From: Klebsiella phage vB_KpnS_IME279
DNA length: 42,518 nucleotides
Strand: one strand, 5' to 3'
Sequence record: MF614100.1
The notes beneath the pieces were generated by a model. The model saw nothing but the letters and a program-made list of their open reading frames with translations, made no database searches and was not told the origin of the DNA. Positions 6,386-28,628 of this stretch are shown in pieces (position 1 is the first letter of the stretch; each line of letters starts with the position of its first letter). The position numbers and the translations under genes are program-made.

Positions 6386-6410
6386 GGGGCCTTGCGGCCC
6401 CTTTTTTTTT
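6386..6410. terminator. Bidirectional terminator between the convergent Rz and Ig-like genes
   Basis: GGGGCC-TTGC-GGCCCC followed by T9. The Ig-like gene's stop codon lies inside the T tract. Confidence 0.8.
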
Positions 6411-7410
6411 ATGCGGTAACGGTGAGAGCGCAAGCCGTGGAGGTTGCAGTCTTGCCGCCCGCGTCAGTAACGCGGCAAGTGTAGGATCCTGCGTCGCCAG
6501 ACGCTGCTCCGGTTTTCGTGAACGTGGCCGACGTCGCGCCGGAAACGGCTACGCCACCCTTAAGCCACTGGTACGTTAACGGGGCTACGCCGCCGGAAGC
6601 CTGCACAGGGCCGATCGAGATATTGCCACCAGTAGCGACGGAGGACGTCGCCGGGGGCTGCGTCGTAAACGCCGGGAGCGTGTTTAACGTCACGGCGCAA
6701 GCCTGAGACGTAACGGAGCCTTGCGGCACGGCGCTGTCCTTCACAATACACGTATACGTCGCATTGTCTCCGGCTGCGGCGGTTTTGGTATACGTGGCCG
6801 ACGTCGCGCCGGGGATGTTTACGCCGTTTTTCTGCCACTGGTAGGAGTACGGCGCGAGGCCGCCAGCCGCTGCGACGGTCAGCGTCAACGGGTCGCCGAT
6901 GTAGACGGCTTTAGTCGGCGTCAGGTTGGTGGAGAGGGACAGGGCGACTTTGAGGCGGATCCGCTGGGAGTCCTTCGTCTGGCCCTGGCTGTCCGTCACG
7001 GTCACGTAATAGTCGCCGTTGTTGCTCGCCTGGTAGTTGGCGATCGCATAGCTCGGCGAGTTGGATCCTACGTTAACAGTCGTCCCGCCGGAGACTTTCT
7101 TCCACTGGTAGGAAAGCGGCTCGATCCCCCCAGAGGCGGCAACGGTAAGCGTCTGCGTTGCGCCAGCCGCGACGAAGGTCGATCCGGCATCACCGCCAGC
7201 CACGCCGGGGAGGTCCTGCGTAAACACGATCGGAGGTAGCAGGGCCGGATCGTACTCGATGTAAAACATTTTCGTGGGGTCGAGGTTAGCCGGGTCAGCG
7301 TCTAACCAGATAAGATCTTTTTGCGGAGTCGCGCCGCTGGCCGGATCCTCGATCCGGGTGACTTTCCAGCCCAGCAAGTCCGGGCGGTAGTAGCGATGCC
7401 AGTAACCCAT
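6409..7410 (-). CDS. Ig-like (I-set type) triple-repeat protein, Hoc-like candidate moron
   Basis: Three repeats of about 70 aa with the Y-x-W...(K)NG...Y.C.V.D.....S motif (PLSYQWKK, PYSYQWQKNG, PLTYQWLKGG). 21-nt stretches are identical between repeats. SD GAGGA precedes the start. Confidence 0.8.
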   Translation of the reverse strand: MGYWHRYYRPDLLGWKVTRIEDPASGATPQKDLIWLDADPANLDPTKMFYIEYDPALLPPIVFTQDLPGVAGGDAGSTFVAAGATQTLTVAASGGIEPLSYQWKKVSGGTTVNVGSNSPSYAIANYQASNNGDYYVTVTDSQGQTKDSQRIRLKVALSLSTNLTPTKAVYIGDPLTLTVAAAGGLAPYSYQWQKNGVNIPGATSATYTKTAAAGDNATYTCIVKDSAVPQGSVTSQACAVTLNTLPAFTTQPPATSSVATGGNISIGPVQASGGVAPLTYQWLKGGVAVSGATSATFTKTGAASGDAGSYTCRVTDAGGKTATSTACALTVTA

Positions 7411-7483
7411 AATTTTGTCCTCGTGGTGTGGCCGTGGTATAGTTCCACGGCATTGTAGATCATCTTTGGGCCGTAAACGAAAG

Positions 7484-7512
7484 GAGCCGCTTTTTAAGCG
7501 GCCCTTTTTTTT
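7484..7512. terminator. Bidirectional rho-independent terminator
   Basis: GCCGC-TTTTTAA-GCGGC with T8 on the plus strand and TTTCGTTT on the minus strand. Confidence 0.7.
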
Positions 7513-7612
7513 ACAGTGCTAATGATACGGCGTAACCAATTGCGGCCCATGCTGCCGCGCTGGCGGCGATTACGGCCCAGATTACATAGCGGTGTCCGCG
7601 TAAGTCTTTCAT
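7511..7612 (-). CDS. Small membrane peptide of 33 aa, not in the ORF track
   Basis: MKDLRGHRYVIWAVIAASAAAWAAIGYAVSLAL. Its ATG overlaps the upstream stop as ATGA. Confidence 0.4.
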   Translation of the reverse strand: MKDLRGHRYVIWAVIAASAAAWAAIGYAVSLAL

Positions 7613-27624: not shown

Positions 27625-28080
27625 TTAGTTGGCCGTGTCGTCGTCGTAAAAGCGGCTATGCGCCCAGGTCGATTGATTCCCCGCTCCGGTCGGCATGTCG
27701 TTACGGCGTTTGAGCGTCGGCACTTCGTAGAATGCCACCTTAATGTCGTCCCATTTCTCCTTAAGGAGCGCCCGGACGTCTGCGGGGAGTTCCATCTGGT
27801 TATCGATCAGCATCCTTTGTGCCATCTTGAGCGCGATCGCCTCCAGCGTCCACAGCTCCAGACCGGAGTCCTCGTTACCATCGGGGATCCCGTCGGAGTT
27901 GGTGGTGAAGATGTACGGAAAATTCAGGTTATCCTTGATACACTCCGCCATAAAAGCCTCTAAATCAGTCAGCCCGTCAACGACGGACTGCTGATCGGCA
28001 ATTAGGAGGGTTGCAGTCGAGGACAGGCCCGCACGGCGTAACGCCTGGTTAACGATCCTGATCTTCTGCAACGTCGCCAT
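27625..28080 (-). CDS. Head-to-tail adaptor, P22 gp4-like
   Basis: IRIVNQALRRAGLSSTATLL...DGLTDLEAFMAEC and DMPTGAGNQ align with gp4 LVRAALRKLGVASDATL...DAVDDLEAMMAEW and RMPTGSGNS. Confidence 0.75.
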   Translation of the reverse strand: MATLQKIRIVNQALRRAGLSSTATLLIADQQSVVDGLTDLEAFMAECIKDNLNFPYIFTTNSDGIPDGNEDSGLELWTLEAIALKMAQRMLIDNQMELPADVRALLKEKWDDIKVAFYEVPTLKRRNDMPTGAGNQSTWAHSRFYDDDTAN

Positions 28081-28628
28081 TATTTTTTCCCTTTCGCCTT
28101 AGTGTCCACTTTCTGGCCGTCTACTTTCTGGCCGTCTTTTTTGCCGTCGTCCGCTTTGGCGTCGTCCTTCGGCTCGTCTTTCTTCGGCTCCACTTTCACG
28201 CCGTCCGGCTGTTCAGAAGCGACGATCGTCTCCCCTTCGGTGTGGACCTGATCGCCCACCAGTTTCTCGTCCTCCGGGGTCGGTGCTGCGGCTGCGGGGA
28301 CGACCTGAGCCTGGCCCTCTGCCACCTGCACGGCGTCCAGTTTAAGGCGTTGCTCCTCGATCTCCTGCTCCGCCTGGGTGGATTTCTGTTCGCGGCTGGC
28401 GCGCTCGGCTTCCTTCTGCTTCGCCTCCTCGATCGCTTCGTCCAGGATGTGGATCTTGTTCGGGTGATCCACCCAGAGGCCGGACTCCAGACGCTTTTCG
28501 GCTTCCAGCGCCGGGAAAATAGCATAGTGGACGAGGTGCGGACCGCAACGGACGGCAGTCAGGCGGATCGCTTCGGTGATGATGTTCGGGCGGGTGTAGA
28601 TCATTTGTTCGTAGGACATTGGAGACAC
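28080..28628 (-). CDS. Unknown protein with a folded N-domain and a Lys/Asp/Glu-rich disordered tail, inserted between the coat and adaptor genes
   Basis: SD GAGGAG. C-terminal KKDEPKDDAKADDGKKDGQKVDGQKVDTKAKGKK. No P22 counterpart at this position. Confidence 0.6.
   Translation of the reverse strand: MSPMSYEQMIYTRPNIITEAIRLTAVRCGPHLVHYAIFPALEAEKRLESGLWVDHPNKIHILDEAIEEAKQKEAERASREQKSTQAEQEIEEQRLKLDAVQVAEGQAQVVPAAAAPTPEDEKLVGDQVHTEGETIVASEQPDGVKVEPKKDEPKDDAKADDGKKDGQKVDGQKVDTKAKGKK

What the first reader, a model, noticed from the sequence alone, without database searches (positions are those of the whole stretch)
6386..7512. Autonomous Ig-like (I-set) triple-repeat gene bracketed by two bidirectional terminators: candidate Hoc-like or adhesin moron
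The 333-aa protein has a unique approximately 85-aa N-domain followed by three tandem Ig I-set-like repeats: (T)LTVAASGG..P.SYQW.K.G....G..S..Y.........Y.C.V.D...S. The repeats share 21-nt identical DNA stretches. The gene has its own SD and a possible promoter with a CCGTGG-N7-CCACGG inverted repeat. It is insulated by terminators at 6386-6410 and 7484-7512, and lies convergent with the lysis cassette, far from the structural module. Ig-like domains of this type decorate capsids (T4 Hoc) and bind glycans or mucus, so this may be a decoration or host-interaction factor expressed independently.
Basis: partly seen in the sequence, partly recalled or inferred. Interest (0 to 1): 0.7.

Follow-up and report, generated by a model that had tools for sequence, protein, structure and literature searches.

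The report
Hoc-like Ig fibre gene of podophage
This is a real gene for a protein with a small anchoring domain followed by three immunoglobulin-like domains; it is conserved across a group of short-tailed coliphages, most likely decorates the virus particle as T4 Hoc does, and is an ordinary new member of a known kind rather than a newly acquired extra gene.

Summary
The ORF (6409-7410, minus strand, 333 aa), its three Ig-like repeats, its Shine-Dalgarno site and the two flanking hairpins are all real. The window is a complete Sortsnevirus genome, 97.9% identical to Escherichia phage sortkaff, a P22-like podophage. The gene is not a moron. Orthologues sit at the same place, convergent with the spanin gene, in Sortsne-, Murray-, Skarpretter- and Hungarioviruses, and the gene's base composition matches the genome. 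In more distant relatives it directly follows the tailspike gene at the end of the structural operon. The Ig part is closest to solved capsid decoration proteins: Bas63 Hex-Dec (E 2.9e-53), Sf14 gp20 and T5 pb10. These share the layout of an N-terminal anchor plus a variable number of Ig domains. The N-terminal domain is about 58 aa, not 85. It is the most conserved part, is restricted to this clade (8 clusters among 1.84 billion representatives), matches no known fold, and also occurs as a free-standing 70-73-aa protein in relatives. The third Ig domain was probably added by recombination, because most relatives have two. The CCGTGG-N7-CCACGG repeat is perfect only in this genome and is within chance. 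Virion attachment is inferred, not shown. Verdict: new member of a known kind, modest interest.

The parts
6409..7410 (-). CDS of the 333-aa Ig-like protein, stop codon included. It is the orthologue of sortkaff_24 (98% identical).
7237..7410 (-). N-terminal non-Ig domain (aa 1-58), the presumed anchor. It is acidic: over aa 1-68 the pI is 4.5. It is the most conserved part: 27 of the 40 invariant alignment columns fall in aa 1-68.
6946..7236 (-). Ig-like domain 1 (aa 59-155). It lacks the Cys pair found in D2 and D3.
6679..6945 (-). Ig-like domain 2 (aa 156-244), of the 'ALSLSTNL' type. This type is the terminal domain in most two-Ig relatives.
6412..6678 (-). Ig-like domain 3 (aa 245-333), of the 'LPAFTTQPPAT' type. 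It is closer to the terminal domain of the two-Ig relatives P0080 (67%) and P0009 (59%) than to its own D2 (48%).
7418..7422 (-). Shine-Dalgarno site GAGGA, 7 nt before the ATG. The block GAGGACAAAAT is invariant in 7 relatives.
7445..7465 (-). Conserved promoter-like block AGATGATCTACAATGCCG, with a -10-like TACAAT at 7452-7457 and no good -35 element. It is invariant across Sortsnevirus and Murrayvirus and unique in the genome.
7432..7450 (.). Inverted repeat CCGTGG-N7-CCACGG. It is perfect only in this genome, through a single G-to-T difference, and is probably not functional as such.
7484..7512 (.). Upstream hairpin GGGCCGCTT-AAA-AAGCGGCTC. It ends the upstream leftward operon, directly after the stop codon of a 33-aa ORF. 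On the - strand the tail is CUUUCGUUU; on the + strand it is a T8 run.
6386..6410 (.). Hairpin GGGGCC-TTGC-GGCCCC shared by the two convergent genes. The T9 run on the + strand ends the lysis cassette. On the - strand the Ig gene's TAA stop and an A-run precede the hairpin, and the tail is UCUCUCAUU.

Best explanation
The gene encodes an accessory virion decoration fibre that works like T4 Hoc, T5 pb10 and Bas63 Hex-Dec. The small, conserved, acidic N-terminal domain (about 58 aa) anchors one end to the particle. The most likely site is the P22-type T=7 capsid, and a hexamer centre is the precedent. The three Ig-like domains project outward as a fibre of roughly 10 nm (my estimate from typical Ig domain size). 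They make weak, multivalent contacts with surface carbohydrates, which would help adsorption, dispersal or retention in the environment. The protein is made in the cytoplasm, since it has no signal peptide. The gene has its own short transcription unit, set off from the upstream early-type operon by a conserved hairpin, and shares a terminator hairpin with the convergent lysis cassette. The number and type of Ig domains are changed by recombination: relatives carry N+D1+typeA or N+D1+typeB, and this phage carries N+D1+A+B.

Shown: the gene, its domains, its homologies, its conservation, its synteny and the hairpins. Inferred: virion attachment, the attachment site, carbohydrate binding, the promoter and the timing of expression.
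For: **Family matches and solved relatives**
- PHROG matches cover the N-domain plus two Ig domains: phrog_3995 at 3.6e-83 and phrog_2973 'Hoc-like head decoration' at 1.8e-68.
- The best solved relatives of the Ig part are virion decoration proteins. 9ncf_S (2.9e-53) is Bas63 Hex-Dec. [quoted passage not shown] T5 pb10 matches at 5.6e-15 and RB49 Hoc at 3.4e-5.

**The same evolutionary pattern here**
- The N-domain holds 27 of the 40 invariant alignment columns.
- Relatives have 2 Ig domains and this lineage has 3.
- D3 is nearer to the terminal domains of other phages than to D2.

**Genomic context**
- In distant relatives the gene lies 48 nt downstream of the colanidase tailspike gene, on the same strand, with no T-run terminator between them.
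- The N-domain also exists as a free-standing 70-73-aa protein, so it is an autonomous module.
- The gene is conserved in every relative found in the phage collection by N-domain tblastn. It is the only Ig protein in this genome.

**Other**
- There is no signal peptide or membrane segment.
- A review states that phage Ig-like domains occur in tail fibres, baseplate and tail components, head components and decoration proteins. It also notes that pb10 was first mis-called a tail protein because of its Ig domain (PMC7602432).
Against: - There are no proteomic, EM or genetic data for this protein or any orthologue in the papers searched.
- N-domain divergence does not track the major capsid protein (Spearman r = 0.01) or the portal (0.07) across 7 genomes, 21 pairs.
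- In this phage the gene sits next to early-type genes, and the promoter is only a conserved -10-like element without a -35.
- The Ig domains are slightly basic (pI 8.0-8.8), unlike the negatively charged Hoc and Hex-Dec.
Confidence: 0.6

Rival explanations
1. It is a neck, collar or tail-hub fibre (a whisker), not a capsid decoration. The N-domain would dock on the portal, adaptor or tail-hub region of the P22-like tail machine, and the Ig string would act as a short side fibre that helps the colanidase tailspike during adsorption.
For: - phrog_3995, the best match, is labelled 'tail protein'.
- C130_2's orthologue was deposited as 'neck whiskers protein'.
- In distant relatives the gene directly follows the tailspike gene.
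- EM of the sortsnevirus Kc237 describes a 'collar'.
- The highest, though weak, covariation of the N-domain is with tail-proximal proteins: p131 at r = 0.57 and the needle at 0.48.
- Ig-like collar proteins are known in Bas63 and GP4.
Against: - The 'tail' and 'whisker' labels are similarity-based, and they trace to the Ig domains. The matches to the major-tail-protein PHROGs cover only the Ig region, and pb10 was mislabelled in the same way.
- The closest solved homologues of the Ig part sit on capsid hexamers.
- The covariation values rest on 21 non-independent pairs and are not significant.
Confidence: 0.2
2. It is not a virion component. It would be a soluble Ig-like protein made from its own promoter and released at lysis, for example to coat host debris or exopolysaccharide, or it would act inside the infected cell.
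For: - The gene lies outside the structural module, between an early-type operon and the lysis cassette, in its own transcription unit.
- The N-domain has no recognisable capsid-binding fold and does not covary with the capsid protein.
- Its linkage to the lysis cassette is the most conserved feature of its context.
Against: - The functional classes the review lists for phage Ig-like domains are all virion components (PMC7602432).
- Every characterised homologue of the Ig part is virion-bound.
- An anchor domain that is more conserved than the displayed domains fits a fixed structural partner.
- The gene is adjacent to the tailspike gene in distant relatives.
Confidence: 0.15
3. It is a moron: a recently acquired, independently transcribed gene (an adhesin) inserted between two phage genes.
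For: It is flanked by hairpins and has a promoter-like element and its own Shine-Dalgarno site. Ig-domain proteins are abundant in bacteria.
Against: - The gene is present at the same site in all relatives across at least four genera.
- GC is 62.3% against 59.3% for the genome, and GC3 is 0.75, like other genes.
- There is no signal peptide.
- The N-domain is phage-clade specific.
Confidence: 0.03

Closest known systems
Bas63 (Felixounavirus) Hex-Dec, PDB 9NCF chain S
   Same: - It is the best solved sequence match: E 2.9e-53 over the Ig domains, which share the 'YQWKK...SATYTK...DAGSYTC.VT' motifs.
- The layout is the same: an N-terminal anchor followed by a string of I-set-like domains.
- The anchor is conserved while the Ig number varies among relatives.
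- The gene is encoded more than 10 kb from the structural module.
   Different: - Its anchor domain is about 125 aa, helical and two-lobed. The domain here is about 58 aa and mostly beta, and the two are unrelated (hhalign probability 0.1).
- Its host particle is a T=9 myophage, whereas this one is a P22-like T=7 podophage.
- It has four Ig domains against three here, and it is acidic whereas the Ig domains here are slightly basic.
Shigella phage Sf14 gp20, PDB 9C2D/9C3A chain S
   Same: The Ig domains are homologous (E 1.5e-38). [quoted passage not shown] The authors likewise discuss gain or loss of Ig domains by recombination.
   Different: The anchor domain is unrelated. Sf14 is a myophage with a T=9 capsid and a second, beta-tulip decoration protein.
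T5 pb10 (PDB 5LXK, 8ZVI)
   Same: [quoted passage not shown] The Ig domain matches at E 5.6e-15. It binds hexamer centres as a monomer and was first mis-annotated as a tail protein.
   Different: It has one Ig domain rather than three. The N-domain shows no detectable similarity.
T4/RB49 Hoc (PDB 3SHS)
   Same: It is a string of three Ig-like domains plus one capsid-binding domain. It is dispensable and is implicated in adhesion and dispersal. Foldseek gives E 3.9e-12 and TMt 0.51; sequence E is 3.4e-5.
   Different: The domain order is reversed, with the capsid-binding domain at the C-terminus in Hoc. Sequence similarity is limited to the generic Ig fold.
PHROG phrog_3995 / phrog_2973, including RefSeq 'Hoc-like head decoration' of IME_EC2 gp08, Lumpael gp25 and C130_2 gp15, and 'tail protein' of Sortsne gp12 and Skarpretter gp58
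   Same: These are true orthologues: same N-domain, same genomic position and same flanking hairpins.
   Different: Most of them have two Ig domains. Only this phage, sortkaff, Kc237 and a few metagenomic relatives have three. The names are automatic annotations, and none has been tested.

Membership tests
Immunoglobulin-like (I-set / Ig_3) domain superfamily | Sequence match above the curated Pfam thresholds | tested here: met
   Ig_3 scores 77.6 bits (cut-off 30), Ig_2 70.6 (27) and I-set 35.1 (23.7), each with 2-3 stretches.
Immunoglobulin-like (I-set / Ig_3) domain superfamily | Beta-sandwich fold, with tandem domains arranged as beads on a string | tested here: met
   The AF2 model has pLDDT above 90 over aa 60-333. 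Foldseek matches titin I67-I69, Robo1 Ig1-4, NCAM Ig1-3 and RB49 Hoc, with E values from 1e-15 to 1e-11.
PHROG 3995 / 2973 (clade-specific 'tail protein' / 'Hoc-like head decoration') | Profile match covering the non-Ig N-domain as well as the Ig domains | tested here: met
   The full protein matches at 3.6e-83 (aa 6-247) and 1.8e-68 (aa 14-243). The N-domain alone matches at 2.6e-8 and 5.8e-3.
Hoc-like decoration proteins with an N-terminal anchor (Bas63 Hex-Dec, Sf14 gp20, T5 pb10) | Architecture: N-terminal non-Ig domain followed by one or more C-terminal Ig-like domains | tested here: met
   compared.
Hoc-like decoration proteins with an N-terminal anchor (Bas63 Hex-Dec, Sf14 gp20, T5 pb10) | Anchor domain homologous to a known capsid-binding domain | tested here: not met
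Hoc-like decoration proteins with an N-terminal anchor (Bas63 Hex-Dec, Sf14 gp20, T5 pb10) | Anchor conserved while the Ig number varies among close relatives | tested here: met
   27 of the 40 invariant columns lie in aa 1-68. Family members have 2 or 3 Ig domains.
Hoc-like decoration proteins with an N-terminal anchor (Bas63 Hex-Dec, Sf14 gp20, T5 pb10) | Physically bound to the capsid (hexamer centre) in virions | not testable with these tools
   No proteomics or EM for this clade was found. Covariation with the capsid protein gave r = 0.01, which is inconclusive.
T4 Hoc family proper | N-terminal Ig domains with a C-terminal capsid-binding domain | tested here: not met
   The domain order is reversed here. 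Hoc's order is described.
Moron (independently transcribed gene inserted into a phage genome) | Present in some genomes but absent from closely related genomes at the same site | tested here: not met
   The gene is present at the same site in sortkaff, Kc237, Sortsne, IME_EC2, KMB41, sortsyn, Lumpael, Skarpretter and C130_2. It is found in 18 phage records in all, counting duplicate GenBank/RefSeq entries.
Moron (independently transcribed gene inserted into a phage genome) | Own promoter and terminator | tested here: inconclusive
   The hairpins are real and conserved. The promoter is only a conserved -10-like TACAAT without a -35. No transcript data are available.
Moron (independently transcribed gene inserted into a phage genome) | Base composition distinct from the surrounding genome | tested here: not met
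   GC is 0.623 against 0.593 for the genome. GC3 is 0.749, against 0.72-0.79 for other genes.
Major tail (tube) proteins with a C-terminal Ig domain (phrog_158, phrog_853) | N-terminal tail-tube domain, in a phage with a long tail | tested here: not met
   Only the Ig region aligns (aa 155-333). The phage has a P22-like short tail with a tailspike, ejection proteins and Hc3.
Secreted or surface bacterial Ig-like adhesins | Signal peptide or membrane/cell-wall anchor | tested here: not met
   The N-terminus MGYWHRYYRPD is polar. The highest 19-residue Kyte-Doolittle window scores 1.28 and lies inside an Ig strand.

The most novel reading that the evidence does not exclude
The 58-aa N-domain would be a previously undescribed, clade-restricted anchoring module that gives P22-type T=7 podophages a Hoc-style Ig fibre. 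No such decoration is among those met in the papers read here; the only P22-like decoration they mention is phage L Dec. In relatives that also encode a free-standing 70-73-aa copy of the domain, the free and the fused copies might bind together as a two-part anchor. That would be reminiscent of the pseudo-two-fold, two-lobed capsid-binding domain of Bas63 Hex-Dec. Alternatively, the free copy might compete with the fibre for binding sites and so tune how many fibres a particle carries.
Probability: 0.2. Interest if true: 0.5.

Novelty: new member of a known kind. Interest (0 to 1): 0.3.

Why it matters
If the protein decorates the particle, it extends the Hoc, pb10 and Hex-Dec type of Ig fibre to a clade of high-GC, P22-like podophages through an unrelated anchor domain. 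That would be another independent solution to hanging Ig domains on a capsid. A small autonomous anchor is of practical interest for phage display on P22-type capsids, and for predicting how therapeutic or environmental coliphages adhere. The finding also gives a clean example of Ig-domain accretion by recombination within one orthologous gene. It does not change current understanding, because the kind of system and its evolutionary pattern are already described.

Full report
**What is there.** The window is a complete phage genome, 97.9% identical over the tested 4 kb to Escherichia phage sortkaff (Sortsnevirus). Its structural module is P22-like: portal, coat, scaffold, Hc3, ejection proteins and a colanic-acid-degrading tailspike. 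It is therefore a podophage with no long tail. ORF 6409-7410 on the minus strand encodes 333 aa, with a GAGGA ribosome-binding site 7 nt upstream of the ATG. Pfam finds three Ig-like domains well above threshold (Ig_3 at 1.1e-21). AlphaFold models them at pLDDT above 90, and Foldseek matches strings of I-set domains, including RB49 Hoc. The repeats are 33-48% identical at the protein level. At the DNA level they share 69-92-nt stretches at 74-75% identity and one exact 21-mer, between Ig domains 2 and 3 (D2 and D3). This is the only Ig-domain protein in the genome.

**The flanks.** Both hairpins fold far better than shuffled controls. They are conserved in relatives, with loops that vary and, in one distant relative, a compensatory stem change. 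The downstream hairpin lies in the 27 nt between the spanin stop codon and the Ig gene's stop codon. The upstream hairpin directly follows the stop codon of a conserved 33-aa hydrophobic ORF that ends the leftward early-type operon of methyltransferases, RusA and primase. Both hairpins have perfect T-runs on the plus strand and weaker U-rich tails on the gene's own strand. The tail CUUUCGUUU after the upstream hairpin is invariant across genera. Termination in the sense direction is therefore plausible, and "bidirectional" is a fair description for this genus.

The 100-nt intergenic region is almost invariant between Sortsnevirus and Murrayvirus, while the flanking coding sequences diverge. 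It contains a -10-like TACAAT but no good -35. An upstream ATG that relatives annotate as the start codon (MPGNYTTAHHEDKIM...) is out of frame here. That stretch is therefore conserved as DNA, not as protein.

**Not a moron.** Orthologues occupy the same position, convergent with the spanin gene, in sortkaff, Kc237, Sortsne, IME_EC2, KMB41, sortsyn, Lumpael, Skarpretter and C130_2. A tblastn search with the N-domain alone finds 18 phage records (some phages appear twice, as GenBank and RefSeq entries), all podophages of about 40 kb from this clade. GC and GC3 match the rest of the genome, and there is no signal peptide or membrane segment.

In Lumpael and in metagenomic relatives, a free-standing 70-73-aa homologue of this domain is encoded just downstream of the Ig gene. 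An HMM built from three free-standing copies hits the N-terminus of the window protein at E = 2e-8 and nothing else in the window. The domain is therefore an autonomous module.

**What it most likely does.** The closest solved relatives of the Ig part are virion decoration proteins:
- Bas63 Hex-Dec (9NCF, E 2.9e-53) binds hexamer centres through an N-terminal domain and displays four Ig domains. Its gene lies more than 10 kb outside the structural module, and its relatives keep the anchor while varying the Ig number.
- Sf14 gp20 (9C2D) is similar, with three Ig domains, or two in relatives.
- T5 pb10 has an N-terminal anchor plus one Ig domain, and was first mislabelled a tail protein because of that Ig domain.

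The protein here shows the same architecture and the same evolutionary pattern. Context adds support. In distant relatives (contigs carrying P0080 and P0124) the gene sits 48 nt after the colanidase tailspike gene, on the same strand and without a T-run terminator between them. It is still convergent with the lysozyme gene. I therefore favour a virion-attached Ig fibre anchored by the N-domain, at confidence 0.6. The capsid is the most likely site by precedent. A neck or tail-hub site (0.2) and a non-virion role (0.15) remain open.

Attachment itself is not shown. No proteomic or EM data exist for the clade in the papers searched. N-domain divergence does not track the capsid protein or the portal.

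**Domain history.** Most family members have N+D1 plus one terminal Ig domain. That terminal domain is either type A ('ALSTNL...') or type B ('LPxFxTQPPAT...'). The window, sortkaff, Kc237 and a few metagenomic relatives have both, in the order A then B. D3 is 59-67% identical to the terminal domains of two-Ig relatives but only 48% identical to its own D2. This points to recombination rather than a recent tandem duplication. The N-domain is more similar to those of Kc166B and Skarpretter (76-78%) than to that of same-genus Sortsne (68%), whereas the capsid protein shows the opposite pattern. The region therefore has its own mosaic history.

**Verdict.** The 'Hoc-like decoration' reading is supported by homology, architecture and context. 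The 'moron' and 'adhesin' readings and the inverted-repeat promoter feature are not supported. This is a new, uncharacterised member of a known kind, and its one distinctive feature is a clade-specific anchor domain of unknown fold.

Noticed in passing
L006 1908-2120 (-) (Lumpael gp24); L017 3225-3446 (+); L020 1909-2130; L022 1727-1945; protein P0122: A free-standing 70-73-aa ORF homologous to the Ig protein's N-terminal domain lies immediately downstream of the Ig gene in some relatives. In these relatives the Ig protein's own N-domain is of a diverged 'MGNFW/MGNYY' type. The window phage has no such copy. It could be a second anchor subunit, a competitor for binding sites, or a recombination remnant.
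   Followed up: partly
window 7415-7512 (+): On the plus strand there is a promoter-like site, TTGTCC-17-TATAGT with an extended -10 (TGGTATAGT). It faces the perfect plus-strand terminator at 7486-7512, so it could give an RNA of about 60 nt that starts back-to-back with the Ig gene's presumed promoter. The block is nearly invariant in Sortsne- and Murrayviruses, although the TG is lost in Murrayvirus. No Rfam family matches.
   Followed up: partly
window 7511-7612 (-): A conserved 33-aa hydrophobic ORF (MKDLRGHRYVIWAVIAASAAAWAAIGYAVSLAL) ends the upstream operon, and its stop codon abuts the terminator hairpin. It is annotated in sortkaff (gp25), KMB41, Lumpael (gp26) and sortsyn, but not in IME_EC2, Kc237 or Sortsne, although the sequence is present there.
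   Followed up: no
L002 3617-3658, L003, L007 (5' ends of the annotated Ig genes); proteins P0004, P0014, P0017: Several deposited orthologues are annotated from an upstream ATG, which adds 14 aa (MPGQYTAQFHEDKIM / MPGNYTTAHHEDKIM). That ATG overlaps the conserved -10-like TACAAT, has no Shine-Dalgarno site, and is out of frame in the window and in sortkaff. These starts are therefore probably mis-annotated.
   Followed up: partly
whole genomes L010-L016 compared with the window: The comparison shows mosaicism. Kc237 is 84-96% identical to the window in most structural proteins but only 53% in the large terminase. Endolysin identity is flat (75-91%) across genera whose capsid proteins are only 57-65% identical. 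The 182-aa protein encoded just downstream of the coat gene (28080-28628) has no detectable homologue in Skarpretter, C130_2 or Kc166B.
   Followed up: no
window 6386-6410: The consensus terminator scan did not list this hairpin on either strand, although it is a 6-bp GC stem with a T9 run and folds at -22.5 kcal/mol. This is a limitation of the scan, not of the sequence.
   Followed up: yes
L017 2423-2469: In the distant relative, the 48-nt spacer between the tailspike gene and the Ig gene holds a GC-rich hairpin (GCGGCCGGT-AGCG-ACCGGCCGC) with no T-run. It may be an RNA processing or stability element rather than a terminator.
   Followed up: no
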